Virus record (IMG/VR): IMGVR_UViG_3300045988_155520
Span: 1 to 64,000 of that record
From: a virus
DNA: 64,000 nucleotides
Strand: one strand, 5' to 3'
Positions within the stretch are counted from its first letter, which is position 1. Every line of letters begins with the position of its first letter. The notes under the pieces are model-generated. The model searched no databases, was not told the DNA's origin, and worked only from the letters and a program-made list of their open reading frames with translations. The position numbers and the translations under genes are program-made. Below are positions 273 to 35,025 of this stretch, piece by piece.

Positions 273-277
273 ATTTG

Positions 278-348: not shown

Positions 349-417
349 AAGTTAAGGAAACATTATTATTTTTATTCTATAAAAAAAGAGAAAATCTGCT
401 GTTTGTTTCCTAAGTAG

Positions 418-489: not shown

Positions 490-499
490 ATAAAATTAC

Positions 500-620
500 A
501 CCTCACTATCGGACTTGAACCGATGACTCACGGATTATAAGTCAATTTTAAAATTTGCTGTTCTTTTCCATATAGGAAAAATTTTAGTAACGTCGCTCTA
601 ACCTACTGAGCTAAGTGAGG
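500..620 (-). tRNA. tRNA-Ile (TAT) interrupted by a 47-nt insert (544..590) in the anticodon stem
   Basis: RC exon 1 (620..591) is CCTCACT-TA-GCTC-AGTAGGTTA-GAGC-G-ACG. RC exon 2 (543..500) is GA-CTTATAA-TCCGT-GAGTC-ATCGG-TTCAAGT-CCGAT-AGTGAGG-T. Joining them restores an ACGGA/TCCGT anticodon stem and a canonical 74-nt cloverleaf. Confidence 0.6.
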
Positions 621-627
621 TGTTTTG

Positions 628-701
628 CAGTGCATACGAGATTCGAACTCGTGACCTTCGCCGTGACAGGGCGGTATTCTAACCTACTGAACTAATGCAC
701 T
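628..701 (-). tRNA. tRNA-Asp (GTC)
   Basis: RC: AGTGCAT-TA-GTTC-AGTAGGTTA-GAAT-A-CCGCC-CTGTCAC-GGCGA-AGGTC-ACGAG-TTCGAAT-CTCGT-ATGCACT-G. Confidence 0.9.
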
Positions 702-933
702 AATTTAACTCCTATTTTTAATATAGGATTATGTTTTTTTATAATTTGGTTGTAACGTTACCAACGTAGCTATCAAGAATTTATGTCGACTAAATTCTAT
801 CAATTACTGAATTAGTTTTTTATAAAATTACACTTAGCATCATTCTTAGCTAAGAAACCATTTACATGGGTATTACGTTTTGTAATGCATGAGTTATTTA
901 CCACATTGTATAATCAATGTGAATCGAACTCAA

Positions 934-1127
934 GACTCGAAGAACTAAACATATTCAAAGTAGATAAACTACTTATTCTACATTCACTCCTTGCAGTGTA
1001 CTGCAAGTTTCTTCGAGTTGATAATAATACTTCATTTGCTTTTTCAACGTTTAAGTTTATTAGCCTCAAAAGCACCATTACCAGCTTGTTTTAAGAGCTA
1101 TTCTCGTAACACGGTTACAAGTACTCT
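934..1127 (-). ncRNA. Unclassified structured RNA candidate, copy A (paralog at 34831..35025)
   Basis: About 195 nt aligns end to end with the second intergenic copy. At least three helices carry compensatory changes. Imperfect positions become G:U only on the minus strand. No credible ORF is shared by both copies. Confidence 0.5.
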
Positions 1128-1137
1128 GTATGAAAAG

Positions 1138-1210
1138 TACGCCCACTGAGACTCGAACTCAGGACTCCAGCATTAAAAGTGCTGTGCTCTACCAACTGAG
1201 CTATGAGCGC
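1138..1210 (-). tRNA. tRNA-Lys (TTT)
   Basis: RC: GCGCTCA-TA-GCTC-AGTTGGTA-GAGC-A-CAGCA-CTTTTAA-TGCTG-GAGTC-CTGAG-TTCGAGT-CTCAG-TGGGCGT-A. Confidence 0.9.
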
Positions 1211-3923: not shown

Positions 3924-3996
3924 TTGCGACAACAGGAATCGAACCTATGACTACGACTATAATTTTGTCGTCGAGATACCACTTCTCCATGTCACA
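3924..3996 (-). tRNA. Atypical tRNA with a 9-nt anticodon loop (best reading UAU, Ile-like)
   Basis: RC: TGTGACA-TG-GAGA-AGTGGTA-TCTC-G-ACGAC-AAAATTATA-GTCGT-AGTC-ATAGG-TTCGATT-CCTGT-TGTCGCA-A. All four stems pair but the loop has 9 nt instead of 7. Confidence 0.55.
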
Positions 3997-4272: not shown

Positions 4273-4382
4273 CCTTTTCTTCTTTCTATAAAAATCCACA
4301 TTGAAAAATAACCTAAAAATCAAAGTAAAACAAATTGTACTTTAAAAAACAATATGGTTATTTTTCACCCATCATCCATATG

Positions 4383-4540
4383 TGAACTACCCATGAGTTA
4401 AATACTCATAGGCTTCGGGTTTCATCGAAGAATGGCTTTCCAAAAGGTCGGCTCTTACTTCCCATCCACCCGTGTAATCGACTGTTCCTGCCGATAGTAC
4501 CTTACATTCCACAAACTAAAGACTTGTGGGCTTTACGTTA
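4383..4540 (-). mobile_element. tnpB-less miniature IS200/IS605-type element (MITE-like) carrying an omega-RNA-like module
   Basis: 4383..4495 aligns base for base (113 nt) with the tnpB 3' end and right end at 17148..17260. 4496..4538 carries a left-end-type hairpin CCACAA-actaaagac-TTGTGG, homologous to the hairpin at 32347..32369. Confidence 0.6.
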
Positions 4541-4586
4541 CTATATATAAATATAGTGAAATTTATTTTATTATCAATACTATTTG

Positions 4587-6152
4587 CTATTTTTTTTGAA
4601 AAAAAATAGCAAACTTTTCTCCACCATACTCTCCATTAGTCAACTTTATAATCTCTCTAATGGTGTATTTGTCCTTATGAGGACTTGGTAGTTTATTCTC
4701 GATGAAATATCTTGTACCAGTCAAACAAGCACCAGTGATGGTACGATATGCAGCGATAGCTTCCTCAACAGATAATGTATCATCCAATGACAAGTTCTTA
4801 TAAGCAGAAGTATCTCTATCATTTATCTTATATATAAGGTCAGATTTAGCTTCTGCAAGTGTATCACCATGCGCCCAATGACCTTCTCCATCTGTAACAA
4901 GATAAAATGTTCTATCTCCTTGAAAGAGTTTATGTACCTTGTATACATTATCATGATGTGCTTCAATAACTGAGAAAATACCATCAGCTTTAATATATTC
5001 CACACCATCTCTCTTCCAAAATACAACTTTATTCTTCTCTTCTTTTGATAAATCGTTATTGGGAATATATATTTTGTTATTCATTTTAATATGCCCATAA
5101 ACTTTTAGATTATCTGGAAATTTTGTAATTTTTGTATCATTGAGGAATATATTACCATTTACCGTCAAATTATCAGGTAATTCTTTAATTTTTGTATTAC
5201 GTAGGATAAGGTTATCTCCTACTGTCAAATTATCAGGTAACTCAGTGATATCTGTATCACTTATATCAAGACATCCACCAACAATTAAGTTATTAGGTAA
5301 CTTTTTAATATGAGTTTCACCTAAAACTAAGTTCCCTGCTACTATAAAACTATCAGGCAGCTCTGTGATATCTGTATTTTGTAAATGTACACTTTCACCA
5401 ACCTTTAAATTGTCTGGTAATTTTGTTATATTAGTATAGCTTAAAAAAATAATTTTCTCAACAGTTAAATTATTAGGCAGCTCTGTGATATCTGTATTAT
5501 TTAGATACAAAACTCCGTGTACTGTAAAATTATCAGGTAGTCTTTTTATATCTGAAAATCTTAAGTCGATGTCTTGACCAACGCTTAAGCTGTCAGGAAG
5601 TTCCGTGATAAGTGTATTCTTTAAATTAAGATAACCCGTAACTGTTAAATTATCAGGCAACTTCGTTAACTTTGTATCCTCTACGTTTAAATTCCCTCTA
5701 ACAGTTAAATTGTTAGGGAGTTCTGTAAGAGACGTATTGTTTAAGTAGATACTTTCTCCTACGATTAAACTATCTGGAAGTTCTCTAATATCTGTATGTC
5801 CTGCAAAAAGAGAACCCTTAACTGTTAAGTTGTCTGGAAGTTTTTTAATATCTGTAAAACTTACATCAAGGTCTTCACCAACACTTAAGTTGTCAGGGAG
5901 TTTTCTAATGTCGGTATATTCAATAAAAAGACAGCCCATAACGTTTAAGTTATTAGGTAACTTTTTAATAGCCGATTTGCGCAAGTTAAGATGTCTATAG
6001 ATAGTTAAATTGTCAGGTAACTCTGTGATATTTGTACCAGTTAAATTAAGACTCCCATTATAAATTAATTTCCCATCCTTAACGGTGAGTTCATACCCAG
6101 TTTCTTCCTCGAATCTTTCTATTATTTCGTTCATATTTTTATTCATAACCAT
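4587..6152 (-). CDS. leucine-rich-repeat protein with a conserved C-terminal domain of unknown function
   Basis: Many tandem roughly 23-aa LPDNLTVxGxLxLxxTxITE units. The C-terminal ~150 aa (FWKRDGVEYIKADGIFSV...GTRYFIENKLP...) are shared with 12008..13234. Confidence 0.8.
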   Translation of the reverse strand: MVMNKNMNEIIERFEEETGYELTVKDGKLIYNGSLNLTGTNITELPDNLTIYRHLNLRKSAIKKLPNNLNVMGCLFIEYTDIRKLPDNLSVGEDLDVSFTDIKKLPDNLTVKGSLFAGHTDIRELPDSLIVGESIYLNNTSLTELPNNLTVRGNLNVEDTKLTKLPDNLTVTGYLNLKNTLITELPDSLSVGQDIDLRFSDIKRLPDNFTVHGVLYLNNTDITELPNNLTVEKIIFLSYTNITKLPDNLKVGESVHLQNTDITELPDSFIVAGNLVLGETHIKKLPNNLIVGGCLDISDTDITELPDNLTVGDNLILRNTKIKELPDNLTVNGNIFLNDTKITKFPDNLKVYGHIKMNNKIYIPNNDLSKEEKNKVVFWKRDGVEYIKADGIFSVIEAHHDNVYKVHKLFQGDRTFYLVTDGEGHWAHGDTLAEAKSDLIYKINDRDTSAYKNLSLDDTLSVEEAIAAYRTITGACLTGTRYFIENKLPSPHKDKYTIREIIKLTNGEYGGEKFAIFFQKK

Positions 6153-12007: not shown

Positions 12008-13234
12008 TTATTTTTCAAAAAACTTTTTAAATCTTTCACTACCATACTCATCAGCGGTCAAATCTATAATCTCTCTAATGGTATACTTGTCTTTGTGAGG
12101 TCTTGGTAATCGGCTCTCAATGAAGTATCTTGTACCGACTGAACATGCACCAGTAATAATACGATATGCAGCGATAGCTTCTTCATAAGATAAAGTATCG
12201 TCCAATGACAATTTTTCATAATCCGAGGTGTCCCTATTGCTTAACTTATATATAAGGTCGGCTTTAGCTTCTGCAATAGTTGCGCCATGTGCCCAATTGT
12301 TTTCTCCATCGGTAACAAGATAAAATGGTTTATCTTCTTCTCCAATCTTGTGTACATTGTATATATTACCATGGTGAGAAACTATAACCGAGAAAATACC
12401 ATCAGCTTTGATATATTCAACTCCATGACTTTTCCAGAAAAATGTCATATTTTTTAAATCATGAATAATCTTCTTTTGTTTTTGAGAAAGTTCTATTTTG
12501 ATGTTTGATAAGTCTTCTTTTGTTAGAATATCTTTAACTAAAAAACCATCAACAGTTAAAGTCTTTGGTAACTTTTTAATTGGTGTATATCTCATATCAA
12601 GTTCACCGTAAACAACCAATTTTTTTGGAAGTTTTTTAATCTTTGTATGAGTTATGTCAAGATAACCACAAACAAATAAATTATCTGGTAACTTGTTAAT
12701 CTCAGAAAAACTTAAATCAATATTACCACCTATAGTTAAGCCGTTAGGTAATTCTGTGATTTTTCCATAAGACAAAACCATATCACCACCTATAGTCAAA
12801 TTTTCAGGTAAATTTATATTGTCATTAGAATATAATTTAAGTTTCCCACTGATAATAAAATTATTAGGAATTTTTGGAATATTCATGTAAGATATATCAA
12901 TATTTCCACCTACGACCAAGTTGTCAGGTAAATTTGTAATATTTGACTTTCTTATTTCAAGATTACATCCAACTACTAAATTATCTGGTAAAGTTTTAAT
13001 GAGTGTACCGTTTATAGTCAAAGTACCACCTATAATTAAATTATCTGGAAGCGATTCGATTTGTGTACACAATAATTCGAAATTCCCATAAACTTTTAAT
13101 TTATTATGTGTTTTCTTTATATGTCCAAAATAAATAACAAGATTTCCATTTACGGTCAGATTATCAGGGAGTTCCGTAATAACTTTATCACTTAAAAATA
13201 TATTACCATCATAAAACAGTTCATTATCTCTCAC
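12008..13234 (-). CDS. leucine-rich-repeat protein, paralog of 4587..6152; its ancestral 5' end (to 13300) is cut off by an in-frame TAA
   Basis: Same LRR unit and same C-terminal domain as the paralog. The track start is a GTG. Homology continues upstream across a TAA at 13277..13279 to an ATG at 13300, which has its own -7 box. Confidence 0.7.
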   Translation of the reverse strand: MRDNELFYDGNIFLSDKVITELPDNLTVNGNLVIYFGHIKKTHNKLKVYGNFELLCTQIESLPDNLIIGGTLTINGTLIKTLPDNLVVGCNLEIRKSNITNLPDNLVVGGNIDISYMNIPKIPNNFIISGKLKLYSNDNINLPENLTIGGDMVLSYGKITELPNGLTIGGNIDLSFSEINKLPDNLFVCGYLDITHTKIKKLPKKLVVYGELDMRYTPIKKLPKTLTVDGFLVKDILTKEDLSNIKIELSQKQKKIIHDLKNMTFFWKSHGVEYIKADGIFSVIVSHHGNIYNVHKIGEEDKPFYLVTDGENNWAHGATIAEAKADLIYKLSNRDTSDYEKLSLDDTLSYEEAIAAYRIITGACSVGTRYFIESRLPRPHKDKYTIREIIDLTADEYGSERFKKFFEK

Positions 13235-16246: not shown

Positions 16247-17101
16247 TTATAATATTTTTCTTAAACGTTCTGATTCATCTGCAAGAGGTATAATCTCATA
16301 GTTTCCGTCTGGCTTTAGATAAACCAGTCTTCTTGTTATAATTTTAAAACCTAAATCTTGCAGTGGTATAGCATATGTAGACAATTGAAGTGTATATACC
16401 GATTGAGGTTCTTCAATATAATCATCAAATGGTGGTAAAAGTGTCTTACCAATTTGGCGATTATATGATTTAATTAATTCTTTATTTGTCTTATAGTCAT
16501 AAATACATAATCCACTCTTTTCTCCTGTTGGGTCATCGTAGTAAAACAATATATCAGCTGTACCTGCTAAATTCTGTTTCATACCTTCTGTGAACATCTT
16601 AGCTTCCGCTAATACTAAATGCAAATCTGGATGCAGCTCTGATTGAAATTTATATATTGCTTCTTGCTTTGGATGAGTTGGAATAAGCCAGTTCTTATCT
16701 TTAATATATTTTCGTTTGCAACTATCTAAAATAAGTTCTGGATGTCCAGCATTCACATACGCTAAAGATTCACCATATTCATGACACAATGTTCCTGTTA
16801 TGGTAGATTTTAAATTACTTATTTTCCATATATCTTGCCAATACTCTTTAGTATTACCATATTTTTCTGCATACTTGGAAGCCTGTGTTTCAGAATCAAA
16901 TTCATGTTCAAATTCACCAAGTCTTGTTGTGACAGATTTGAATAAATTATTTCTGTCATTCTTCAAATAATATATATGTGGTTCTTCTTCAAAAACCAAA
17001 TCTTTGAACTTATCCAATATGGTTGCACGAATTTCGGTTACAATCTTAGGTTCACCTTTTATTTCAAACATACCAGGAATATCCTTATATTTCTTCTTCA
17101 T
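16247..17101 (-). CDS. PD-(D/E)XK (RecB/Cas4-like) exonuclease
   Basis: Motifs GTADILFYYD, IYDYKT (D/E-x-K) and YTLQLSTYA (QxxxY). The track start at 17128 is a TTG; the first ATG (MKKKYKD) is at 17101. Confidence 0.75.
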   Translation of the reverse strand: MKKKYKDIPGMFEIKGEPKIVTEIRATILDKFKDLVFEEEPHIYYLKNDRNNLFKSVTTRLGEFEHEFDSETQASKYAEKYGNTKEYWQDIWKISNLKSTITGTLCHEYGESLAYVNAGHPELILDSCKRKYIKDKNWLIPTHPKQEAIYKFQSELHPDLHLVLAEAKMFTEGMKQNLAGTADILFYYDDPTGEKSGLCIYDYKTNKELIKSYNRQIGKTLLPPFDDYIEEPQSVYTLQLSTYAIPLQDLGFKIITRRLVYLKPDGNYEIIPLADESERLRKIL

Positions 17102-17147
17102 GATTTCTCTTAAAATATAATGTATCAATATTTACTACATGCAAAGA

Positions 17148-17260
17148 TGAACTACCAATGAACTAAAAACTCATTGGCTTCGGGCTTCATAGAGGAATGG
17201 CTTTCCAGAAGGTTAGCTCTTACTTCCTCTCCACCCGTGTAATCGACAGTCCCTGCCGAT
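17148..17260 (-). ncRNA. omega-RNA (reRNA)-like scaffold overlapping the tnpB 3' end and right end
   Basis: This 113-nt block is conserved in the two tnpB-less copies (4383..4495 and 27669..27781). The terminal hairpin covaries: CCAATGAG/TTCATTGG vs CCTATGAG/CTCATGGG. The position matches known TnpB guide-RNA genes. Confidence 0.55.
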
Positions 17261-18360
17261 GTGTTATTATTTAATCCGATACGAAGAATGTTAATTGCAG
17301 CATTAACATCACGGTCATGATGAGTATGACAAATCGGACACTCCCACTCACGAACAGATAAATCTTTAATATCTTTGTTGACATGCCCACAAACATTACA
17401 AGTCTGAGAGGATGGAAAGAATCTGTCTACCTTCACAATCTTCTTGCCGTTCCATTCAGCTTTATAAGTTAGCATAGTAACAAAGCTACCCCAGCCTGCA
17501 TCAGTAACGGACTTGGCAATACGATGATTCTTAACCATACCCTTTACATTCAGGTCTTCGATACAGATGGTATCATATCTTCTAACAAGAGAGATAGAAC
17601 ACTTATGTAGATAGTCAGCACGACTATTGGCAATTTTCTCATGAAGTCGGGCAACTTTGAGTTTTTGGCTTTCAAACCCTCTGCTACCTTTCTTCTTACG
17701 AGAAAGATGACGCTGTGCTTTTGCAAGTTTATGTTCGTATCTTCTGGTATATCGGTTATTCTTAAAAGTTTCCCCATATGAAGTGATAAGCAAGTTCTTC
17801 AAGCCCATATCCACACCAACTGATTTGCCTGTCTTCTTGAGAGGAGTTTCGTATTCTTCTTCCGTGAATACAGAAACTAAATATTTACTACTCGGAGTTT
17901 TTGTGATTATTATCTTCCCTATTTTCCCTTTTATCTCACGGTGCACACGGCACTTTATACCTTCAGTGAACTTGCGTATGAAAAGTCTTCCACCAGCTAC
18001 AGATGCCGATTGTGGAACGGTGAAACTGTTTTTAGAGTGTTTGGATTTAAAATTAGGAAACTTAGCACGCTTCTTAAAGAAATTGTTATAGGCTGCTTCA
18101 AGACTGCGGATAGCGAACTGCAGGGTTTGAGCGTTTACCTCCTTCAACCATGCAGTTTCTTCCTGCTTCTTTAATATGGTAAGCGTTTTAGCCTGCGCAT
18201 AGTAATTATCACTCTTACCAGTAAGTCTATATTGTTCCTTACGTTGATTGAGAAAGTAATTGTACACAAAACGAGTACATCCGAAATGCTTTGCCAGCAA
18301 TTCGGTTTGTGCCTTGTTCGGGTACAGTCTGAACTTATATGTTCTGTTTATCTTTCTCAT
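17152..18360 (-). CDS. tnpB: TnpB (IS605 OrfB-family RNA-guided nuclease), RuvC triad intact
   Basis: MRKINRTYKFRLYPNKAQTELL N-terminus. RuvC D (GVDMGLKN), E (ICIEDLNVKGM), Zn finger CNVCGH...CPICH, and D (DRDVNAAINI). Confidence 0.9.
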   Translation of the reverse strand: MRKINRTYKFRLYPNKAQTELLAKHFGCTRFVYNYFLNQRKEQYRLTGKSDNYYAQAKTLTILKKQEETAWLKEVNAQTLQFAIRSLEAAYNNFFKKRAKFPNFKSKHSKNSFTVPQSASVAGGRLFIRKFTEGIKCRVHREIKGKIGKIIITKTPSSKYLVSVFTEEEYETPLKKTGKSVGVDMGLKNLLITSYGETFKNNRYTRRYEHKLAKAQRHLSRKKKGSRGFESQKLKVARLHEKIANSRADYLHKCSISLVRRYDTICIEDLNVKGMVKNHRIAKSVTDAGWGSFVTMLTYKAEWNGKKIVKVDRFFPSSQTCNVCGHVNKDIKDLSVREWECPICHTHHDRDVNAAINILRIGLNNNTSAGTVDYTGGEEVRANLLESHSSMKPEANEFLVHW

Positions 18361-18368
18361 ATCATTTG

Positions 18369-18376
18369 CAAAGATA
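18369..18376 (-). promoter_or_regulatory. -7 promoter box of tnpB (near-leaderless)
   Basis: RC TATCTTTG, only 8 nt from the ATG at 18360. A TTTG lies 19 nt further upstream. Confidence 0.5.
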
Positions 18377-18399
18377 CAAAATATTTTTGTTATAACAAA

Positions 18400-18426
18400 A
18401 AATCCTCCATAAAATTAGGAGGATTT
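18400..18426 (-). terminator. hairpin terminator
   Basis: AAATCCTCC-ataaaatta-GGAGGATTT directly after the stop at 18429, then TTTT on the minus strand. Confidence 0.45.
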
Positions 18427-18428
18427 CT

Positions 18429-19349
18429 TTATCTGTATGAAATATCTGAACCAAATACTAATTGATTATCTTTATATCTTTCTTCATTATTGATAATAAA
18501 ATTAGGTACTTCCTTTAATTCACTTTTTGTCGGTATTTTATATAATTTATGCCCGAAATCACTTTCAGTAATTACTTCTTTTAAATCAAGGTTGTTATCT
18601 TTGTAGTTAAGGTCAAATTTACTATATAATTCTTTAAGATTTAAACACCTATCGTTTCCAATAAATAAATTAGCATAATCTAAGAAATATACATAATTCT
18701 TATTAGTAAGCATTTCCCATGATGTAGGATTAGGATTAGGTTCATGAAATTCTCCGTTTGATAAAAATCCGTTAGTAGCATTACTCTTTATACTAAAATC
18801 ACTATACCTTGTGATATTCTCTATTTTAAAATTAGGAGGCGGTACATTGTACTCTTTGTTTGGTCTTTCCCATGCCATTAGTTTAGCAAAATTATATCCA
18901 CGAGAAACTAACCCATCAATATTATTATCTACCATTCCAGCATCATTTAACCAGTTAGATGTCTTGTATCTAATCAATAGTGTCCATAAATTAGGATGTT
19001 TAGCACATAGTCCAACGGCTTGTTCCCTAAACTTTGTTTCGCCACCATTATTATCTTTCTCTAAGATAACTCTATATATAGAATCCCCATCACCGATATC
19101 ATCAAAATGTTTGCATAAGTCGTCCAATGTATTAAATGTTACTCTTAGGTTAACAATGCCATGGCACGCCCTCCAATAACTATCATCCCAAAAGATTCTA
19201 CAATCAAAAACTCTAACACCTAAATTGTAAAGTTGTTCTTCATTGCGTTCCTGACATTTCCATAATCCTTTATAACCTTTTAATATACCTCCTATTGGAA
19301 ATCCATTGTCTACACCTGCATATGTAAATAAATCATGTGCACATATCAT
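18429..19349 (-). CDS. PI-PLC X-domain-like phosphodiesterase
   Basis: CAHDLFTYAG ... EEQLYNLGVRVFDCRIF ... CHG resembles the PLC-like pattern (G)THDS..., QL..GvR.fDlR, HG. Confidence 0.55.
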   Translation of the reverse strand: MICAHDLFTYAGVDNGFPIGGILKGYKGLWKCQERNEEQLYNLGVRVFDCRIFWDDSYWRACHGIVNLRVTFNTLDDLCKHFDDIGDGDSIYRVILEKDNNGGETKFREQAVGLCAKHPNLWTLLIRYKTSNWLNDAGMVDNNIDGLVSRGYNFAKLMAWERPNKEYNVPPPNFKIENITRYSDFSIKSNATNGFLSNGEFHEPNPNPTSWEMLTNKNYVYFLDYANLFIGNDRCLNLKELYSKFDLNYKDNNLDLKEVITESDFGHKLYKIPTKSELKEVPNFIINNEERYKDNQLVFGSDISYR

Positions 19350-19415: not shown

Positions 19416-22103
19416 TTATTTTTTAATCTGGTCTTTTAAATTCTTTATTTCATTTTCCAATTCTGAAATTTTCAAAATTAATAAAGAAATATAATCAACA
19501 GATTTCATTCCATCAGCACCATTGGTGACTAATTCTGATAAACCAGCTTTTTCAATATCTTGTGCAATAACACCATAATGTTTACTGTTATCAGATTTAA
19601 ATACATATGATTTTAAATTAACATTTTTAACTTTATCAATATCATTGTCTGATATAGTTTCAATGTTCTTCTTTAATCTCTCGTCTGAAGAATTTAAATA
19701 GGCAGGTGCTATCATACCCTCACTTGCCTGAATACCACCAAGTATACTCAAACCTTTCATTGAAGTGCCACCATGTGTTAATTCAACATCAGAAGTGATA
19801 GAGCCGTCATAGTTTATAGATAAAGCATTTTTTCTACTATTATTGTCTATACCAATACCAATTGTAAAAATTTGATTTGCATATACCTTATTGTATGTAC
19901 CACAAACAAATTGTGTTTCATTTTCAGCTATTGTATAAGAACCGCTTGCGTGAGAATTATTGCCACGTGCCATAGTATGATATCCTTCGGCATGAGAATT
20001 TTCTCCACTGGCTATAGTATTACTACCCTCGGCATGAGATTTACTGCCACCTGCTGTAGTACTACTTCCTTCTGAATGTGAATAATTGCCACCTGCAATA
20101 GTATGATATCCTTCCGAATGAGAAGTTTTACCTTTAGCTATAGTAGTTTTACCCTCAGCATGTCCTGAATCATCGTAAACCATTGTATAGCTACCTTCAG
20201 CATGTCCGCCATAGTTTCCTATTGTACCTTTGTTATGTAATGCGTAATCCCAAGTATTGAAATATCCATCCTTTTGTTTTTCAGTAGCTTGAGATGCACG
20301 TGTTGAAGCCTTTGGAACTCCTTCTTTTAAAGTCAATTTAATACGTTTATTTTCAGTTGAATTTGTAAATTTAGAGTTAGGTACTAATTCTGCATTTAAC
20401 ACATCAATAGCAACTGTTTGTCCATTATCTTTGACTAAACAATTCTTGTAATATGTAAGGTCTTCAGGGTATTCATCATTCGTAATGATATAAAGTTCTT
20501 TACTACCAGCAGCTACATCATCTGTGAAATTCATGGCTCTACTATGTAAACCTTCTACGTGGGTAACATCACCAAGTGAAATGCCACCAACACCTTCTAC
20601 ATGTGAAAAAGCACCAGCTGCATTGGTTGATTTACCCTCAGCATGAGATGTTACTCCCATCGCAATAGTCTCTCTTCCTTCAGCATGAGATGAAACTCCA
20701 ACTGCTTTAGTAGTATCACCCTCTGAATGAGATACATCTCCTTGTGCTATAGTATGACTTCCCTCAGCATGAGATGAAACTCCAACTGCTTTAGTAGTAT
20801 CACCCTCTGCGTGAGAATTACCACCACTCGCTGTAGTATCTAAACCTTCTACATGAGTATTATTACCACTTGCTGTTGTTGAAGAACCCTCAGCATGAGA
20901 ATTTTCTCCACTTGCAGTTGTAGAATAACCCTCTGCGTGAGAATCTCCTCCGCTTGCAGTAGTCAAGTTACCTTCGGCATGAGAGTCATCACCACTTGCG
21001 GTAGTCTTTTGTCCCTCAGCATGAGATGAAATACCAATTGATTTAGTATTTATACCCTCCACGTGAGAAGATTCTCCTTGTGCCGTTGTGCCGTTTCCCT
21101 CGGCATGAGAGTTATTTCCAATTGCTGTAGTGTAACTACCCTCTGTATGGGACATTGCACCTTTAGCGATAGTTAATTTACCCTCTGCATGTCCAGATTC
21201 ACCTAATACAATATTATATTGTCCTTCTGAGTGTCCACCATTTATTCTCCCTACGGCTATATTTATAAGACTATAGACATCAGAAGTGAATGTGAAATTA
21301 TTAGTATCATCATTATTTGAAACTTTTTCTAAAGGTTTTTCTAAAGTTAATTCTAAAACGTCACCTTCAAAGTAAATGTGTGGTGTATAATCACTTTTTT
21401 TATATGATATGACCTTGTTTTTTTTATCACTATAAATAAAACAATTTTTGATATAATCATCATTAACTGGTAAATTCATTGTAGAATTATTAATGTATAT
21501 TTTTGTATCTCCAATTGCAATATTCTTAACTAATTCTAAACTCTGTTTATAATATCCTTCTCCATGAGAGTTAGTACCGTTAACTATTGTATAACCTCCT
21601 TCTGCATGTGATGTGTCACCACTTGCAACGGTACCAGCACCCTCAGTATGAGACCAACTACCCATTGCTTTAGTGCCACCACCCTCAGCATGAGAAAAAT
21701 CACCACTTGCAGTCGTACTTCCTCCCTCTGCATGAGAATATTTACCTTTAGCATTACTTTCATTACCCTCTGCGTGAGAAAAATCACCACTTGCTTTAGT
21801 ACCTTTACCCTCAGCTATAGCACACACGCCTGTAGCCGTATTCACTTTATCACTCGGACTGGTTGGTATACCATTATCTAACACTGCAGAATAATCACCC
21901 TCGCCTTTCTTCCAAGGTCCAGTTTCACCATCTTTAAATCCCATTGTGATAATTGAGTCGTCACTTCCCTTCATAGCGAGGAATGGTTCTTCAACGTTAA
22001 AGTTAACAGCAATTTCGCCATACTTTAAATCTTCTGCTGTAGGTTTCTTACCTTTCTGTGAGCTTCTTGGCAGCTGCACATGCCTTTTTACATTACTTGT
22101 CAT
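19416..22103 (-). CDS. tail fiber/spike protein with SHAEG-type repeats and a C-terminal S74 intramolecular-chaperone domain
   Basis: Long array of GxxSHAEGxxTxAxG repeats. The C-terminus SDERLKKNIETISD...HYGVIAQDIEKAG plus a coiled coil is the peptidase_S74 auto-cleaving chaperone signature. Confidence 0.8.
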   Translation of the reverse strand: MTSNVKRHVQLPRSSQKGKKPTAEDLKYGEIAVNFNVEEPFLAMKGSDDSIITMGFKDGETGPWKKGEGDYSAVLDNGIPTSPSDKVNTATGVCAIAEGKGTKASGDFSHAEGNESNAKGKYSHAEGGSTTASGDFSHAEGGGTKAMGSWSHTEGAGTVASGDTSHAEGGYTIVNGTNSHGEGYYKQSLELVKNIAIGDTKIYINNSTMNLPVNDDYIKNCFIYSDKKNKVISYKKSDYTPHIYFEGDVLELTLEKPLEKVSNNDDTNNFTFTSDVYSLINIAVGRINGGHSEGQYNIVLGESGHAEGKLTIAKGAMSHTEGSYTTAIGNNSHAEGNGTTAQGESSHVEGINTKSIGISSHAEGQKTTASGDDSHAEGNLTTASGGDSHAEGYSTTASGENSHAEGSSTTASGNNTHVEGLDTTASGGNSHAEGDTTKAVGVSSHAEGSHTIAQGDVSHSEGDTTKAVGVSSHAEGRETIAMGVTSHAEGKSTNAAGAFSHVEGVGGISLGDVTHVEGLHSRAMNFTDDVAAGSKELYIITNDEYPEDLTYYKNCLVKDNGQTVAIDVLNAELVPNSKFTNSTENKRIKLTLKEGVPKASTRASQATEKQKDGYFNTWDYALHNKGTIGNYGGHAEGSYTMVYDDSGHAEGKTTIAKGKTSHSEGYHTIAGGNYSHSEGSSTTAGGSKSHAEGSNTIASGENSHAEGYHTMARGNNSHASGSYTIAENETQFVCGTYNKVYANQIFTIGIGIDNNSRKNALSINYDGSITSDVELTHGGTSMKGLSILGGIQASEGMIAPAYLNSSDERLKKNIETISDNDIDKVKNVNLKSYVFKSDNSKHYGVIAQDIEKAGLSELVTNGADGMKSVDYISLLILKISELENEIKNLKDQIKK

Positions 22104-22975: not shown

Positions 22976-23061
22976 TAGCTCGAACGGGAGTCGAACCCGT
23001 ACACTCATTTCTGAATATTGAATTTTAAGTCCAATGCGTCTACCTATTTCGCCATCGAGCC
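22976..23061 (-). tRNA. tRNA-Leu (TAA), long variable arm
   Basis: RC: GGCTCGA-TG-GCG-AAATAGGTAGA-CGC-A-TTGGA-CTTAAAA-TTCAA-(17-nt variable arm)-ACGGG-TTCGACT-CCCGT-TCGAGCT-A. Confidence 0.9.
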
Positions 23062-26939: not shown

Positions 26940-27629
26940 ATGAAACCCAAGAAGAATAAATATCACATTATATTAACTAAGAACGGTAAACAAATAGATG
27001 ATATATACTGGTGTGGTAATATCGAGAGAGTTTACAGTCGTTTTGAAGCGTTAAAGGATAAAAGTAATAAAGTTCTTTTTCCAGTTCGTTGGACTCATCA
27101 AAATAAAAAACTTGTTGAAACAAAATATGAATTATTCATTATAGAGTATAATGATTCTAATACTAATGATATCGTAAGGTTAAGAGATGAGTACGGAAAG
27201 TTTATAAAATACGAAACAAATCATAATTCATGGAGAGTATTTGATAAAGCTGATTACGACAAAGAAGAAACTTTTTGGATATATGGTTATCACCCTTTAT
27301 TTGAACGTAAAGATTTTAAATGGGTATTTGACAATTTGATTTATAGGGATAAAAAGAATAAGTATAATTTCAAACAAATATTAGTTTACAACAATAAATT
27401 ACTTATTGATACCAATGGGAATATTGAAATAGTTCTTACAAAGAATAAAAAAGACTGTATACGTTTATATAATACTATACAGGATAAATGTGAGAACGAG
27501 AAATTTCGTTATATTGCTTTTTGTGGAGATTTAAATAAAAGCAAGTTAAAGGGTGATTGGATAAATAAGATTGAAGAGAAAACTGGTTGGGATAGAGAAA
27601 AAGTTAAAAGAACAAAGACGAGAAATTAA
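26940..27629 (+). CDS. hypothetical protein
   Basis: ATG ORF on a plus-strand island, followed by a hairpin. Confidence 0.6.
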   Translation: MKPKKNKYHIILTKNGKQIDDIYWCGNIERVYSRFEALKDKSNKVLFPVRWTHQNKKLVETKYELFIIEYNDSNTNDIVRLRDEYGKFIKYETNHNSWRVFDKADYDKEETFWIYGYHPLFERKDFKWVFDNLIYRDKKNKYNFKQILVYNNKLLIDTNGNIEIVLTKNKKDCIRLYNTIQDKCENEKFRYIAFCGDLNKSKLKGDWINKIEEKTGWDREKVKRTKTRN

Positions 27630-27630
27630 A

Positions 27631-27659
27631 AAAGCGACGAACTAAATGGTTGTCGCTTT
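27631..27659 (+). terminator. hairpin terminator
   Basis: AAAGCGAC (27631-38) / GTCGCTTT (27652-59), then a T-rich tract. Confidence 0.45.
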
Positions 27660-27668
27660 CTGTTTGTG

Positions 27669-27903
27669 TGAACTACACTCAGTCTAAAGACTTATGTGCT
27701 TCGGGCTTCACGGAGGAATGACTTTCCTAATTGTTAGTTCTTACTTCCTCTCCACCCGTGTAATCGACAGTCCCTGCCGATGTAATTGCTATTACTTTGT
27801 AAAGATACAAAGAAATTTTTAAACTACAACATTTTTATTGCATTTTTTTAGAAAAAAATAGTACCTTACATCCCATAAGCTAAAGACTTGTGGGTTTTAC
27901 GGC
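27669..27903 (-). mobile_element. tnpB-deleted IS200/IS605-type element: omega-RNA-like module, relic tnpB promoter and left-end hairpin
   Basis: 27669..27781 aligns with 17148..17260. 27796..27830 resembles the tnpB promoter region at 18362..18395. 27860..27903 matches the left-end hairpin segment of 4496..4538. Confidence 0.6.
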
Positions 27904-28140
27904 ACATTGTATAATTATTGAAACGTTTGGAAAAGAGATTTGAATTTCATTATCTGATGGAATAAAATCTTCTCCTTTTGGATTTTGTCTATAATATAAG
28001 TCTTCATCTATTTTTCTCAGTTCTTCTTTATTAACTTTTATATTGAGTACGCCACCTTTTGTTATGCCACAATCATGAAGAAATGTTGAAATATGATTAC
28101 CTAATTCAAATATTTTGTAACTATTTAATGTAAGTTCCAT
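27880..28140 (-). CDS. hypothetical protein; last 8 codons and stop lie inside the miniature IS
   Basis: ATG ORF whose 3' end overlaps 27880..27903 of the element. Confidence 0.5.
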   Translation of the reverse strand: MELTLNSYKIFELGNHISTFLHDCGITKGGVLNIKVNKEELRKIDEDLYYRQNPKGEDFIPSDNEIQISFPNVSIIIQCAVKPTSL

Positions 28141-28142
28141 GA

Positions 28143-28382
28143 TTAAAAAAAATCAAAAATTTTATCAGTTATTCTTTTCAAAGAGTACTTAACTTTTTCC
28201 AATTTAGAAATGGTTATTTTTTTCTTACCACTTATAACTTCCATCATATCTTTGCCCATTGCACCATTTAATTTATTAGCTATATTTTCCTGCTGTTGGG
28301 CAATATTTCTTTCAGTCATTTTTTGGTCGTTTTTAAGTCCTCTAAGCTCTTTATTTAGTTCGTAGCTACTGTTGTTAGTCAT
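28143..28382 (-). CDS. hypothetical coiled-coil protein
   Basis: ATG ORF. Confidence 0.5.
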   Translation of the reverse strand: MTNNSSYELNKELRGLKNDQKMTERNIAQQQENIANKLNGAMGKDMMEVISGKKKITISKLEKVKYSLKRITDKIFDFF

Positions 28383-28719
28383 TACCTTCTAACGCCTCCT
28401 GTACGCTATTTAAAAGCCATACAATACCAGATGTAAAGCATAAGTCAATGAAAATAATAATATACCATGGTAAGCTATCACCAAAGATGATATTTCCTGC
28501 TGTAAACGGTATTGTTGGGAAAATAAAAATATTGAGTAATGATGTTACCCAACCTACATTTGCGCTTGTACACATCATGCAATCAAAAACATTACCTATT
28601 GGTCCTAAATAACGTTTTGTTGCCGTTCTAAATATATCAATAATATCAAGTGGTCCACTTGCATACACAAGCATATTGGATAGACCGTATGCAAATAAAA
28701 TATAAATTATAAGTGTCAT
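28375..28719 (-). CDS. integral membrane protein (DUF1360-like pattern)
   Basis: Three or four hydrophobic segments. DCMMCTSANVGW recalls the C-x-x-C..W motif of DUF1360. Confidence 0.5.
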   Translation of the reverse strand: MTLIIYILFAYGLSNMLVYASGPLDIIDIFRTATKRYLGPIGNVFDCMMCTSANVGWVTSLLNIFIFPTIPFTAGNIIFGDSLPWYIIIFIDLCFTSGIVWLLNSVQEALEGND

Positions 28720-32327: not shown

Positions 32328-32458
32328 AAAATTTGGTTCATAGAAACCCAAAAGTCTTTAGATTTTGGGAGGAATTGAACCACTATTCCCTCTTTTAGTT
32401 ATCTTAATATAAATATAAATATTTCTTTCAAATATTTTATTTATTCAAATTTATTTTG

Positions 32459-32466
32459 TATCTTTG
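32459..32466 (+). promoter_or_regulatory. -7 promoter box of the second tnpB (near-leaderless)
   Basis: TATCTTTG, 4 nt before the ATG at 32471. Confidence 0.5.
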
Positions 32467-32470
32467 CAGT

Positions 32471-33604
32471 ATGAAATTGACTTTGCAGATTAAACTGCTT
32501 CCGACTGACAAACAAGCTATAATGCTGAAAAATACTTTCAGCGTTTTCAATGAGGCTTGTAACGCTATTTCGCAGATAGCGTGGGAACGTCATGTATTCC
32601 AGCAATTTAGCCTGCATAAGGAAGTATATTATCAAACTAAAGAAACATATCACCTGTCTTCCCAACTTGTTGTACGTGCTATCAGCAAGGTTGCCGATAC
32701 ATACAAACTTGACAGGAAAAAGAAACGACACTTTAGAGAGTTTGGTGCTATCACTTATGATAGTCGTGTACTATCATATAAGACCACCAAAACTGTATGT
32801 TCCATGTCACTTGTTGGGAGTCGTGAAAAGATAGCATATACTTGCTACCGTCCACAACTCATGCAGTATGCTAAAGGTGAAGCTGACCTCGTGCTTATCA
32901 GAGGGAAGTTCTATTTGCACCAGACAATAGACATCCCTGATGAGAAAGAAGAAATTGCAGATGAATTTATTGGTGTTGACATGGGTCTTACCGATATCGT
33001 TTCTCTATCTGATGGAACTAATATATCTTCCAAAGAAGTCAAAATCATAAGAAATAAATACAACAAAGTGAGAGCTTCTGTTCAGTCTAAAGGCACACGT
33101 AACTGTCATAAGTTACTGAAACGGTTAAAAGGGCGTGAAAGAAGATTTGCCACTATTACCAATCACCGTATAAGCAAACAAATTGTAGCTAAAGCAAAAA
33201 AAGAACACAAGGGCATTGCCATTGAGGATTTGAAGAATATCCGCTGGGGTATGAACACTAAGAAACGTAATAAAACATTTCGCAGAAGAAGCAACTCTTG
33301 GTCTTTCTATCAACTCCGTTCTTTCCTTGAATACAAATGTAAGATTACTGGCATCAAGATTGTTGCTGTTCCTCCAGCTTATACGTCACAGACTTGTAAT
33401 GAGTGTGGTCACATTGGCATTCGTAATGGTAAACACTTCCGTTGTACACACTGTGGTAATGTTTTAGATGCAGATGTTAATGCTGCTAAGAATATTGCTA
33501 CATGGGGGTATGTAAACACCCATGAAAGATGGGAATTATTGTCTTGTTATATAAATGATAATAATTTCACGTCTAAAGTCCGCAAATCTTTAGTTTGTGG
33601 ATAG
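32471..33604 (+). CDS. tnpB: TnpB (IS605 OrfB family, second subtype), RuvC triad intact
   Basis: D (GVDMGLTDI), E (IAIEDLKNI), Zn finger CNECGH...CTHCG, and D (DADVNAAKNI). The track start at 32456 is a TTG. Confidence 0.9.
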   Translation: MKLTLQIKLLPTDKQAIMLKNTFSVFNEACNAISQIAWERHVFQQFSLHKEVYYQTKETYHLSSQLVVRAISKVADTYKLDRKKKRHFREFGAITYDSRVLSYKTTKTVCSMSLVGSREKIAYTCYRPQLMQYAKGEADLVLIRGKFYLHQTIDIPDEKEEIADEFIGVDMGLTDIVSLSDGTNISSKEVKIIRNKYNKVRASVQSKGTRNCHKLLKRLKGRERRFATITNHRISKQIVAKAKKEHKGIAIEDLKNIRWGMNTKKRNKTFRRRSNSWSFYQLRSFLEYKCKITGIKIVAVPPAYTSQTCNECGHIGIRNGKHFRCTHCGNVLDADVNAAKNIATWGYVNTHERWELLSCYINDNNFTSKVRKSLVCG

Positions 33605-33605
33605 T

Positions 33606-33956
33606 TTATCGTTCAAAATAATATGTGTATAATCTTTGTATTTTACGTTCAAAGTTCTTTTTGGGAACATTATAAGTTACATGGAACATTGATTTCTTTT
33701 TCTTACTAACTTCATCATAAGGTTCGTCAATCTTTTCCTTTTTCTTTATAACTCCTCTGTTGAGTAACGTATTTTTTAAAACATTTTTATCAATTCCGTT
33801 CTCTTTTAAAACACCTGTTACTTCAGCATTGAATGGGTCTTCAAGTAATTCTTTTAGAAATTTCTTTATATCTCTAAAGAACTCAAAGAAAGTTACTTCT
33901 TTTGTGATACTTTCTTTTAATACTTGTACTTTATTTTGAGGTATATAAATTCTCAT
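33606..33956 (-). CDS. hypothetical protein
   Basis: ATG ORF whose stop abuts the IS right end. Confidence 0.55.
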   Translation of the reverse strand: MRIYIPQNKVQVLKESITKEVTFFEFFRDIKKFLKELLEDPFNAEVTGVLKENGIDKNVLKNTLLNRGVIKKKEKIDEPYDEVSKKKKSMFHVTYNVPKKNFERKIQRLYTYYFER

Positions 33957-34830: not shown

Positions 34831-35025
34831 CATTCGAAGAATTAAATTTACTCAAAAGTAGATAAACCACTTCCTATACATTCACTCCTTGTAATTCTTT
34901 TACAAGTTTCTTCGAAACGATAATAATACTTTATTCGCCTTTCAACATTTAAGTTTCTTAGGATAAACAGTACCATTACCAAATTATTTAAAGAGCGATT
35001 CTCGTAACACAGTTACAAGTACTCT
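34831..35025 (-). ncRNA. Unclassified structured RNA candidate, copy B
   Basis: Aligns with 934..1127 and shows compensatory changes. It lies between a 15-bp hairpin and the start of the 34781 gene. Confidence 0.5.

What the first reader, a model, noticed from the sequence alone, without database searches (positions are those of the whole stretch)
17148..18385. Phage-borne intact TnpB with a guide-RNA scaffold but no tnpA and no recognisable left end
- TnpB keeps the full RuvC D-E-D triad and the zinc finger.
- Its 3' end and right end (17148..17260) form a block conserved in two other loci, as expected for an omega/reRNA scaffold.
- The upstream flank has only a promoter and the neighbour's terminator. 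It lacks the CCCAnAAG-tctttag-TTTnTGG hairpin seen in the three related elements.
- The copy therefore looks immobilised but still functional. It could be a nuclease kept by the phage for homing-type maintenance or for attacking competitors.
- The putative guide would be the minus-strand sequence immediately 3' of ...GTAGTTCA (TCTTTGCATGTAGTAAA...). That sequence overlaps the promoter-like box of the exonuclease gene.
Basis: partly seen in the sequence, partly recalled or inferred. Interest (0 to 1): 0.75.

Follow-up and report, generated by a model that had tools for sequence, protein, structure and literature searches.

The report
Left-end-less TnpB element in phage promoter
A jumbo phage of gut Bacteroidota carries a recently acquired RNA-guided nuclease gene (TnpB) with its guide RNA, wedged inside the promoter of a phage exonuclease gene and stripped of the end it needs to jump again; it is an ordinary kind of element in a slightly unusual, stranded state.

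Summary
ORF 17152..18360(-) is an intact ISDra2-like TnpB: 6e-86 to the solved structure, with D184/E268/D351 and the CxxC pairs. Its last 116 nt form a guide-RNA scaffold whose helices covary, and that scaffold recurs at 4383-4498 and 27669-27784.

There is no tnpA in the window and no left-end hairpin upstream. Six related jumbo-phage contigs have an empty site, which fixes the borders. The element sits inside the -7 box of the exonuclease promoter (TTTTGTAT|CTTTGCA). On the left, the phage promoter is fused directly to the tnpB start codon.

Empty sites for the two TnpB-less mini copies give the family's target motif (TTTAT) and right end (TTCAY).

Full relatives carrying a Y1 tnpA occur in Prevotella genomes and in other virus-classified contigs. 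The phage copies form a tnpA-less clade in which hairpin loss is frequent. At least one hairpin-less copy has stayed under purifying selection (dN/dS 0.10).

Verdict: a new, stranded member of a known kind (IS200/IS605 TnpB with omega RNA). TnpA-independent homing is the most likely activity, but it is inferred, not shown.

The parts
17152..18360 (-). tnpB coding sequence, 402 aa, RNA-guided RuvC nuclease. Catalytic D184, E268, D351; zinc-finger C321/C324/C341/C344.
   Evidence: Pfam and NCBIfam above their cut-offs. 6e-86 to ISDra2 TnpB structures with the motifs aligned. The identical protein is found on 16 public contigs.
17147..17263 (-). Right end, equal to the omega (re)RNA scaffold (about 116 nt, ATCGGCAGG...GTAGTTCAT). 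It overlaps the last 37 codons of tnpB.
   Evidence: Covariance-model hit 17148-17263, 137.5 bits. On 45 relatives, 96.6% of cells are paired, 14 pairs show changes on both sides, and 0/500 shuffles reach this. The single-sequence fold shows the same helices. The last base is assigned from empty-site registers.
17154..17178 (-). Terminal hairpin of the right end (GCCAATGAGT-TTTTAG-TTCATTGGT). It is the 3' stem-loop of the scaffold and the TnpA-type recognition hairpin.
   Evidence: This helix covaries across relatives (helices 7-8).
17131..17146 (-). Predicted 16-nt guide, CTTTGCATGTAGTAAA. It is the 3' half of the exonuclease promoter's -7 box plus the following spacer.
Evidence: It lies immediately 3' of the right end as defined by empty sites. 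The 16-nt length is assumed from ISDra2.
18361..18405 (-). Hybrid promoter now driving tnpB. The phage exonuclease promoter (-33 region and TTTTGTAT) is fused to CTTTGCAAATGAT-ATG. TGTAT (18374-18378) is the motif next to the insertion point.
   Evidence: Collinear with the empty sites of L117-L122 up to ...GCAAATG. TATCTTTGCA occurs 7 times in the window against 0.26 expected.
18397..18425 (-). Terminator hairpin and T-run of the upstream gene (18429..19349). It occupies the space where a left end would lie.
   Evidence: Sequence read directly. The same hairpin is present in the empty-site relatives.
16247..17101 (-). Downstream exonuclease gene (284 aa from ATG 17101). Its promoter was split by the insertion.
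   Evidence: PHROG exonuclease family, 1.5e-14. Relatives show the intact promoter. Gene call of 284 aa in L250.
4382..4546 (-). Mini element A, with no tnpB: left-end hairpin plus omega scaffold. Flanked by TTTAT (4547-4551) and by the guide ATATGGATGATGGGTG (4381..4366).
   Evidence: It is absent from seven related contigs, which gives exact borders.
27668..27910 (-). Mini element B, with no tnpB: left-end hairpin, remnant of the tnpB promoter, and omega scaffold. Flanked by ATTAT (27911-27915) and by the guide ACAAACAGAAAGCGAC (27667..27652).
   Evidence: Empty site in L036/L056/L108. Shared with L093 inside a 1128-nt identical tract.

Best explanation
**What it is.** This is a recently inserted copy of an ISDra2-like IS200/IS605 element that is now stranded.

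**Shown:**
- It entered a jumbo phage of Bacteroidota at TTTTGTAT|CTTTGCA, inside the -7 box of the exonuclease promoter.
- It has no tnpA and no left-end hairpin, so a Y1 transposase cannot excise it.
- Its tnpB reading frame, catalytic residues and omega-RNA scaffold are intact.
- tnpB now sits behind the phage's own promoter. The exonuclease gene is left with half a -7 box, directly downstream of the right end.

**Inferred:**
- The element first inserted normally, using a host (Prevotella-type) TnpA supplied in trans, at TGTAT, a near-cognate version of the family motif TTTAT.
- The left end was then deleted by recombination between the phage promoter and the very similar tnpB promoter of the element.
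- TnpB is transcribed from the hybrid promoter. It processes the 3' end of its own mRNA into an omega RNA whose guide is CTTTGCATGTAGTAAA.
- The complex can cut an unoccupied allele in a co-infecting genome, so that recombinational repair copies the element in. This is transposase-independent, 'non-restorative' homing.
- The same protein can load the two orphan omega RNAs at 4382-4546 and 27668-27910.
For: **Identity.**

**Scaffold.** Covariation is reported. Every independent TnpB-less derivative keeps the scaffold from ATCGGCAGG onward.

**Recent insertion with exact borders.** Six relatives (91-94% identical flanks) are empty at this site. The occupied allele is present in 16 near-identical contigs.

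**Family motif and right end.**
- About 30 independent left ends begin just after TTTAT.
- Empty sites for mini A and mini B fit the same register.
- The base after TTCA is always C or T.
- Near-cognate motifs are used in other insertions: TTTAG, TTTAC, CCTAT.

**Family is a true IS200/IS605.** A divergent Y1_Tnp gene (6e-34) sits between the left end and tnpB in L039 and 13 other loci. It is also present in Prevotella lacticifex and a Prevotellaceae genome.

**No cognate tnpA in the phage.** None is found in the window or in the six relatives' contigs, which reach 222 kb.

**Precursor state exists.** L033/L071 sits at the same position of another promoter (GGTA|...TTCAT|CTTTGCA) and still carries a hairpin.

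**Retention without a hairpin.** L014/L099 give dN/dS 0.10 and L066/L074 give 0.18.

**Possible conversion tract.** A 1128-nt identical tract is centred on mini B, against 6.4% background divergence.

**Concept already described.** TnpA-independent spread of IS605 by TnpB, and PATEs served in trans, are in the literature (PMC13565253, PMC11870625, PMC10055086).
Against: - No expression or cleavage data exist.
- The motif next to the target is TGTAT rather than TTTAT, and whether this TnpB tolerates it is unknown.
- The guide has 3-4 mismatches, from position 8 onward, to every sampled empty allele. None of the six known relatives looks cuttable.
- The copy is so young (0 differences among contigs) that selection on it cannot be measured. 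The intact frame may simply reflect recency.
- The low dN/dS in other hairpin-less copies could partly come from gene conversion by active copies. L080/L113 have 99.7% identical flanks but only 94% identical tnpB.
- The identical tract around mini B would cover the element by chance in about 9% of placements.
- How the left end was lost is not resolved.
Confidence: 0.6

Rival explanations
1. It is a neutral, decaying remnant. The element landed in the promoter, lost its left end by accident, and is on its way to being lost. The intact tnpB reflects only the short time since insertion. The nuclease has no target and does nothing for the element or the phage.
For: - There are zero nucleotide differences among the sampled occupied contigs, and the insertion is absent from all six diverged relatives. 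It is therefore young.
- The target-side motif is non-cognate (TGTAT), and the guide mismatches the sampled empty alleles.
- Decay products are abundant in the family: 24 independent TnpB-less minis and 6 copies that failed the automated intact-ORF check, at least 2 of which (L014, L099) merely read through the right end.
Against: - Hairpin-less copies with intact frames make up as many as 19 of 35 independent intact copies. This is an upper bound, because diverged left ends may be missed. Such copies are more frequent than frame-disrupted ones.
- At least one hairpin-less copy persisted through dS 0.35 with dN/dS 0.10.
- The insertion now carries the only complete promoter upstream of the exonuclease gene, so simple loss may be costly.
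Confidence: 0.27
2. It is a domesticated phage weapon or regulator. The phage has recruited TnpB plus three guides (one in cis, two orphan) to cut competing phages or host DNA, or to bind and modulate promoters that carry the shared -7 box.
For: - There are three cognate scaffolds with different guides in one 64-kb stretch.
- Mini B keeps a promoter remnant directly upstream of its scaffold.
- The cis guide starts with the phage promoter consensus, which occurs 7 times in the window.
- A tnpA-less clade has radiated within this phage family.
- There is precedent for domesticated TnpB derivatives with promoter-directed guides (TldR, PMC10705468).
Against: - Each guide is simply the flank of its own insertion, as in any IS200/IS605 copy. 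None matches anything else in the window.
- RuvC is intact and the C-terminus is not shortened, unlike TldR.
- Other promoters share only 7-9 nt with the guide.
- The insertion is polymorphic and recent, not a conserved phage gene.
Confidence: 0.1
3. It is still mobile. A functional left end exists but was not recognised, or the copy is mobilised through another element's left end.
For: The second TnpB element (32328-33611) and the two minis carry left-end hairpins of the same type elsewhere in the genome.
Against: - Empty sites show that the phage sequence resumes 13 nt upstream of the ATG.
- Only a terminator and a promoter lie between the upstream gene and tnpB.
- A profile search for the left end and the motif search both find nothing there.
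- The nearest same-strand hairpin is 9.5 kb away.
Confidence: 0.03

Closest known systems
ISDra2 (IS200/IS605 family, Deinococcus radiodurans) TnpB with its omega/reRNA
   Same: The protein architecture is the same, with 6e-86 similarity over residues 5-377 to the solved structures. It has the D-E-D RuvC triad and the zinc finger. The guide-RNA scaffold is encoded by the 3' end of tnpB plus the right end, and the guide is the flank just outside the element. The family inserts 3' of a 5-nt motif. Relatives carry a Y1 TnpA.
   Different: This copy has no tnpA and no left end. The family motif is TTTAT, not TTGAT (ISDra2 motif from my own knowledge). The conserved scaffold is about 116 nt. The hosts are Bacteroidota and their phages.
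Non-autonomous tnpB-only IS605-family elements and PATE-like minis (Meers et al. 2023, PMC10055086)
   Same: Most tnpB genes lack a neighbouring tnpA and depend on one supplied in trans. Protein-less minis that encode omega RNAs, served in trans by TnpB, have been described. Minis A and B here are of that kind.
   Different: Those elements keep both ends and remain mobilisable. The copy at 17147-18373 has lost the left end altogether and is fused to a host-genome promoter.
TnpA-independent ('non-restorative') homing, or gene drive, of IS605 by TnpB (PMC11870625; review PMC13565253)
   Same: The proposed activity is the same: RNA-guided cutting of the unoccupied homologous site, followed by copying through recombination, with no transposase needed. 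Co-infecting phages are named as a theoretical arena.
   Different: It has been demonstrated for plasmids, not phages. Here it is only inferred, and the target-side motif is near-cognate.
TldR, TnpB-like nuclease-dead repressors (PMC10705468)
   Same: It is an immobilised TnpB derivative with a guide RNA that overlaps a promoter, and some TldRs are prophage-borne.
   Different: TldRs have inactivated RuvC residues and guides that match a distant host promoter. Here RuvC is intact, and the guide is merely the adjacent flank.
Free-standing homing endonuclease genes of T-even phages (Seg, Mob)
   Same: A nuclease gene sits between conserved phage genes, is polymorphic among relatives, and is expected to spread by cutting the empty allele during co-infection.
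   Different: Target recognition here is by RNA guide, not by protein. The origin here is transposon-derived.

Membership tests
TnpB (RNA-guided RuvC nuclease of IS200/IS605) | OrfB_IS605 / TNB domains scoring above curated thresholds | tested here: met
   Pfam PF01385 98 bits, PF07282 94 bits, PF12323 70 bits. NCBIfam NF038281 453 bits against a cut-off of 425.
TnpB (RNA-guided RuvC nuclease of IS200/IS605) | Split RuvC catalytic triad D-E-D and CxxC...CxxC zinc finger | tested here: met
   D184, E268 and D351 align with the ISDra2 catalytic residues. C321/C324/C341/C344 are present.
TnpB (RNA-guided RuvC nuclease of IS200/IS605) | Structured guide-RNA scaffold encoded at the 3' end of the gene and the right end | tested here: met
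   Consensus structure with 14 covarying pairs, 96.6% of cells paired, 0/500 shuffles reaching this. Model hit of 137.5 bits.
TnpB (RNA-guided RuvC nuclease of IS200/IS605) | RNA-guided DNA cleavage next to a target-adjacent motif | not testable with these tools
   Needs biochemical or in vivo interference assays.
IS200/IS605 transposable element (mobilisable unit) | Subterminal hairpin at the right end, ending in a conserved cleavage motif | tested here: met
   Hairpin at 17154-17178 followed by GTAGTTCAT. The end is conserved in about 80 scaffolds.
IS200/IS605 transposable element (mobilisable unit) | Subterminal hairpin at the left end | tested here: not met
   No hairpin or left-end profile hit upstream of tnpB. 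The phage sequence is collinear with empty sites up to 13 nt before the ATG.
IS200/IS605 transposable element (mobilisable unit) | Y1 (HUH) TnpA in the element or available in the same genome | tested here: not met
   None in the window and none in the six relatives' contigs. It is present in sister copies and in Prevotella. The rest of this phage genome was not available.
IS200/IS605 transposable element (mobilisable unit) | Insertion immediately 3' of the family's target motif, with no target duplication | tested here: inconclusive
   The family motif is TTTAT. This copy abuts TGTAT, and the left junction is secondary. The 7-nt CTTTGCA repeat comes from two promoters, not from a duplication.
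TldR (nuclease-dead TnpB-like repressor) | Loss of RuvC catalytic residues | tested here: not met
   All three residues are present.
Type V CRISPR-Cas (Cas12f-like) | Adjacent CRISPR array | tested here: not met
   No repeat-spacer array anywhere near 14-22 kb in the repeat survey.
IStron (group I intron plus IS605) | Group I intron at the 5' side of tnpB | tested here: not met
   Rfam finds only tRNAs in the window. Only 68 nt separate tnpB from the upstream gene.

The most novel reading that the evidence does not exclude
In this family of about 210-220-kb Bacteroidota phages, ISDra2-like TnpB/omega-RNA cassettes have become transposase-independent, RNA-guided homing modules.
- Copies without a hairpin persist under purifying selection.
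- They recurrently occupy the T(G)TAT|CTTTGCA core of phage promoters, perhaps hopping between promoters by recombination through the shared promoter sequence.
- The orphan omega RNAs act as extra guides for a TnpB supplied in trans. This gives a multi-guide, CRISPR-like arrangement that biases inheritance or excludes competing phages during co-infection.
Probability: 0.22. Interest if true: 0.8.

Novelty: new member of a known kind. Interest (0 to 1): 0.48.

Why it matters
TnpB genes are common in phages, but what they do there is unknown. This locus offers a clean natural test case.
- It has an intact nuclease and guide RNA that can no longer transpose.
- Its insertion borders are known exactly.
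- Sequenced relatives carry the empty allele.
- Two orphan guide RNAs lie in the same genome.

If the nuclease biases its own inheritance in mixed infections, that would show RNA-guided homing without a transposase in phages. That is a plausible step on the road from transposon nuclease to CRISPR effector. If it does not, the locus is simply a young, decaying insertion.

The derived TTTAT motif and the compact 116-nt scaffold also define a Bacteroidota-adapted TnpB system that could be tried as a small genome editor.

Tried and rejected
- **Rfam.** At gathering and at permissive thresholds it has no family for the scaffold. It also has none for the unrelated 170-nt repeat.
- **GenBank phages.** Megablast finds only the TnpB of Parabacteroides phage PF672P2 and nothing for the rest of the window. 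The source phage could therefore not be named.
- **Guide matches.** There is no sign of self-targeting or cross-targeting.
- **Occupied relatives.** I looked for the same insertion in diverged relatives in order to measure selection on this copy. Only near-clonal contigs carry it.
- **Alternative insertion site.** I considered insertion at the TTATA 40 nt upstream of the ATG. I rejected it because the right junction abuts CTTTGCA, not the sequence that follows that TTATA.
- **First motif reading.** My first reading of the motif as TTATA with the right end at TTCA was corrected to TTTAT and TTCAY by the mini A empty site.
- **Bacterial genome scan.** The right-end 18-mer gave 32 hits in one-genome-per-species bacteria. 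Most are chance; only Prevotella and other Bacteroidota hits are real.
- **Rejected classifications.** TldR, CRISPR-associated and IStron readings were each tested and rejected (see the membership rows).
- **Not attempted.** Structure prediction and the large protein-database searches were not run, because the match to solved TnpB structures was already decisive.
Full report
**1. The observation**

The 402-aa ORF at 17152..18360 on the minus strand is a TnpB.
- It passes the Pfam thresholds for OrfB_IS605, Cas12f1-like_TNB and HTH_OrfB_IS605.
- It passes the NCBIfam IS200/IS605 TnpB model, 453 bits against a cut-off of 425.
- It matches the solved ISDra2 TnpB structures at 6e-86 over residues 5-377.
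- In that alignment the RuvC residues are D184 (GVDMG), E268 (CIEDL) and D351 (HDRD). The zinc-finger cysteines are C321/C324 and C341/C344.

The 123-nt block that covers the last codons and the downstream end (17138-17260) is repeated at 4373-4495 (85%) and 27659-27781 (74%).

The hairpin motif CCCAnAAGTCTTTAGnTTnTGG occurs four times against 0.02 expected. The sites are 4509-4530, 27873-27894, 32347-32368 and, with 3 mismatches, 33579-33600. None lies upstream of this tnpB.

The 68 nt between the upstream gene's stop codon (18429) and the ATG hold only a terminator hairpin (18397-18425) and a Bacteroidota-type promoter. The -33 TTTG / -7 TAnnTTTG consensus is from established knowledge of Bacteroides promoters. 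A tblastn with the family's transposase finds nothing in the window.

**2. The family**

The scaffold 18-mer GTCGATTACACGGRTGGA hits more than 115 stretches in IMG/VR. Among those with enough upstream sequence there are 56 full-length tnpB copies (57-87% amino-acid identity) and many copies that retain only the last ~113-116 nt.

Full copies come in three layouts.
- The left-end hairpin lies about 464 nt upstream of the ATG, with a divergent small gene in between. That gene is a Y1 transposase (Pfam Y1_Tnp, 6e-34) and is present in 14 loci.
- The hairpin lies 66-118 nt upstream, with no tnpA.
- No hairpin is detectable.

Bacterial genomes with tnpA plus tnpB copies (82-84% identity) are Prevotella lacticifex and a Prevotellaceae MAG. 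This is therefore a genuine IS200/IS605 family of Bacteroidota, with ISDra2 as its closest characterised relative.

**3. The guide-RNA scaffold**

I aligned forty-five non-redundant scaffolds and derived a consensus of eight helices.
- 96.6% of cells are paired.
- 14 pairs have changes on both sides.
- No shuffle out of 500 reaches the observed values, and shifted registers collapse to 24-47% pairing.

The window's own sequence folds into the same helices. All independent TnpB-less derivatives, whatever their upstream part, begin at ATCGGCAGG, which marks the functional 5' edge.

A covariance model built from this alignment finds exactly four sites in the window:
- 17148-17263 (137.5 bits);
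- 27669-27784 (127.3 bits);
- 4383-4498 (123.1 bits);
- a weak hit at the 3' end of the second TnpB, 33499-33608 (24.3 bits).

Rfam has no model for this RNA.

**4. Exact borders from empty sites**

The neighbouring exonuclease protein retrieves six close relatives (93-99% amino-acid identity) on contigs of 67-222 kb. In all six, window position ~18360 and position 17148 are contiguous, so tnpB is absent.

- The empty site reads ...terminator-TTTTTTGG(T)TTTAATAAAAATATTTTGTATCTTTGCAAATGTT...ATG(exonuclease).
- In the window, the left junction is the same promoter followed by AT-ATG of tnpB.
- The right junction is ...GTAGTTCAT|CTTTGCATGTAGTAAAT....

The element therefore lies inside the -7 box of the exonuclease promoter, a motif (TATCTTTGCA) that occurs 7 times in the window against 0.26 expected. 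The exact protein is found on 16 public contigs in the same context. Three that I compared have no nucleotide difference in tnpB or at the junctions. The insertion is real, fixed in one circulating lineage, and young.

**5. Target motif and right-end register**

Mini A (4382-4546) is missing from seven relatives.
- Empty: TATATTTAT|GAATGGATGATGGATG.
- Occupied: TATATTTAT|ATATAGTAACG...GTAGTTCAC|ATATGGATGATGGGTG.

Mini B fits the same register: ATTAT|ACAATGTGCC...TTCAC|ACAAACAG..., against the empty site ATTAT|AAAAGCAG... in L036/L056/L108.

About 30 independent left ends start right after TTTAT, with unrelated sequence before it. The base after TTCA is C or T in every one of some 60 independent sites. 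So the family inserts 3' of TTTAT and ends in TTCAY.

For the tnpB copy this puts the last base at 17147 and the guide at 17146..17131 (CTTTGCATGTAGTAAA). The motif in the empty allele is TGTAT, one mismatch from TTTAT. Single-mismatch motifs are used elsewhere in the family (TTTAG, TTTAC).

Two other copies sit at the same point of other promoters.
- L080: TGTAT|CTTTGCA, with no hairpin.
- L033/L071: GGTA|, then a hairpin-bearing but 5'-shortened left end, then ...TTCAT|CTTTGCA.

**6. How the left end was probably lost (inference)**

The element's own tnpB promoter (TTTTGTTATTCACAAAATAATTACTATCTTTGCAAGCGAT-ATG) and the phage exonuclease promoter are about 70% alike over 40 nt and identical in GTATCTTTGCAA.

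- **Most economical route.** A normal insertion at TGTAT was followed by deletion between the two promoters. This yields exactly the observed fusion and the 7-nt CTTTGCA repeat on both sides. L033/L071 looks like the intermediate.
- **Alternative I cannot exclude.** Ectopic recombination from another promoter-resident copy, crossing over in the shared promoter sequence on both sides.

**7. Is 'immobilised but functional' a real state?**

I counted independent insertion sites with at least 1.75 kb of upstream sequence.
- 16 intact copies have a detectable left end.
- 19 intact copies have none. This is an upper bound, because diverged left ends may escape my profile.
- 6 copies failed the automated intact-ORF check. 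Two of these (L014, L099) only read through the right end and are intact to residue 399.
- 24 are minis.

In a neighbour-joining tree the window's copy falls in a clade with no adjacent tnpA. That clade is made largely of copies from contigs of this same phage group, and the tnpA-bearing copies form other clades. The cognate TnpA is not found in any of the six relatives' contigs.

Orthologous hairpin-less copies show purifying selection.
- L014/L099: dS 0.35, dN/dS 0.10. The flanks are only 76-85% identical, while tnpB is 91.5% and the scaffold 94%.
- L066/L074: dN/dS 0.18, with flanks and gene equally diverged.
- L080/L113 is a caution: the flanks are 99.7% identical but tnpB only 94%, which points to exchange between copies.

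Retention of TnpB after loss of mobility is thus supported for the family. It cannot be measured for this young copy.

**8. What the nuclease could do**

By the logic established for IS605 elements (PMC10055086), the complex cuts the motif-flanked empty allele. TnpA-independent spread by this route has been shown in plasmids and proposed for phages (PMC11870625, PMC13565253).

- **In favour.** The window and L093 differ at 604 of 9501 positions, yet they share a 1128-nt identical tract (27346-28473) centred on mini B. The next-longest identical run is 168 nt. This is what a co-conversion tract would look like.
- **Weakness of that evidence.** A tract of that size would cover the element by chance about 9% of the time.
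- **Against, for this copy.** The TGTAT motif is non-cognate. The guide has 3-4 mismatches to each sampled empty allele. Mini A's guide differs from the relatives at the two motif-proximal bases.

The guides match nothing else in the window. Nothing supports a regulator (RuvC is intact) or a CRISPR link.

**9. Consequence for the phage (inference)**

tnpB is now driven by the complete exonuclease promoter. The exonuclease gene (ATG at 17101) keeps only CATCTTTG in place of TATCTTTG and has no -33 element. It probably depends on read-through of the tnpB/omega transcript.

**10. Verdict**

This is a new, left-end-less member of a known kind. The interpretation (stranded, probably still active, possibly homing) is reasonable and partly backed at family level, but it is unproven for this copy.

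Phage-borne TnpB is already a familiar observation (PMC12607003, PMC11054128). The interest lies in how cleanly this locus and its relatives would allow a test of transposase-independent RNA-guided homing in phages.

Noticed in passing
window 32328-33611 (+): A second, distantly related TnpB element (382-aa ORF at 32456..33604, 29% identical to the first). It has its own TATCTTTGCA promoter, a left-end hairpin (32347-32368) and a right-end hairpin (33579-33600) of the same type. It is absent from the otherwise 93-96% identical contig L093, so it is also a polymorphic insertion. Unlike the first copy, it looks complete at both ends.
   Followed up: partly
window 4382-4546 (-): TnpB-less mini element A (left-end hairpin directly joined to the omega scaffold). 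It is absent from seven related phage contigs. The two bases next to TTTAT differ between alleles (AT / GA / TA), while the following 11 are identical.
   Followed up: yes
window 27346-28473: A 1128-nt tract with no difference between the window and L093, centred on mini element B (27668-27910). The background is 6.4% divergence, and the next-longest identical run is 168 nt. This could be a gene-conversion (co-conversion) tract. Mini B keeps a promoter remnant (TTTGTATCTTTACAAAG) just upstream of its scaffold.
   Followed up: partly
loci L007, L020, L036, L016, L028 and others (IMG/VR): Many phage-like contigs carry orphan omega-RNA scaffolds with neither tnpB nor a left-end hairpin, and all begin at ATCGGCAGG. 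Some sit directly behind a promoter and a few leftover tnpB codons. Orphan guide-RNA genes appear widespread in these phages.
   Followed up: partly
L080 vs L113 (IMG/VR): The insertion site is the same and the flanks are 99.7% and 97.3% identical (left and right), but tnpB is only 94% identical while the scaffold is 100% identical. This suggests exchange of tnpB sequence between copies.
   Followed up: no
window 957-1127 and 34855-35025: A repeat of about 170 nt in non-coding sequence (85-89% identical), also present in L014. One copy lies next to a tRNA gene. It has no Rfam match and its nature is unknown.
   Followed up: partly
window 1-1210, 2246-2319, 3924-3996, 22976-23061: Ten tRNA genes lie on the minus strand, mostly clustered at the start of the window. 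One (500-620) matches over 121 nt, so it may carry an insert. Together with relatives' contigs of 210-222 kb, this points to a jumbo phage.
   Followed up: no
window 19416-22103 (-) versus L250-L252: The tail-fibre-like gene (YadA-head repeats, 42-nt periodicity, Peptidase_S74 C-terminus) differs at about 420 positions and in length (895 vs 965 aa) between the window and contigs that are otherwise nearly identical. It looks like a hypervariable or swapped receptor-binding module.
   Followed up: no
window 36270-38654 (-): An SbcC-like subunit of a palindrome-specific nuclease is encoded by the phage. Such an enzyme could favour loss of long hairpins such as the IS left end. This link is speculative.
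   Followed up: no
window 4587-6152 and 12008-13234 (-): Two paralogous genes share a 300-nt 3' region (77% identical) and arrays of 60-nt repeat units.
   Followed up: no
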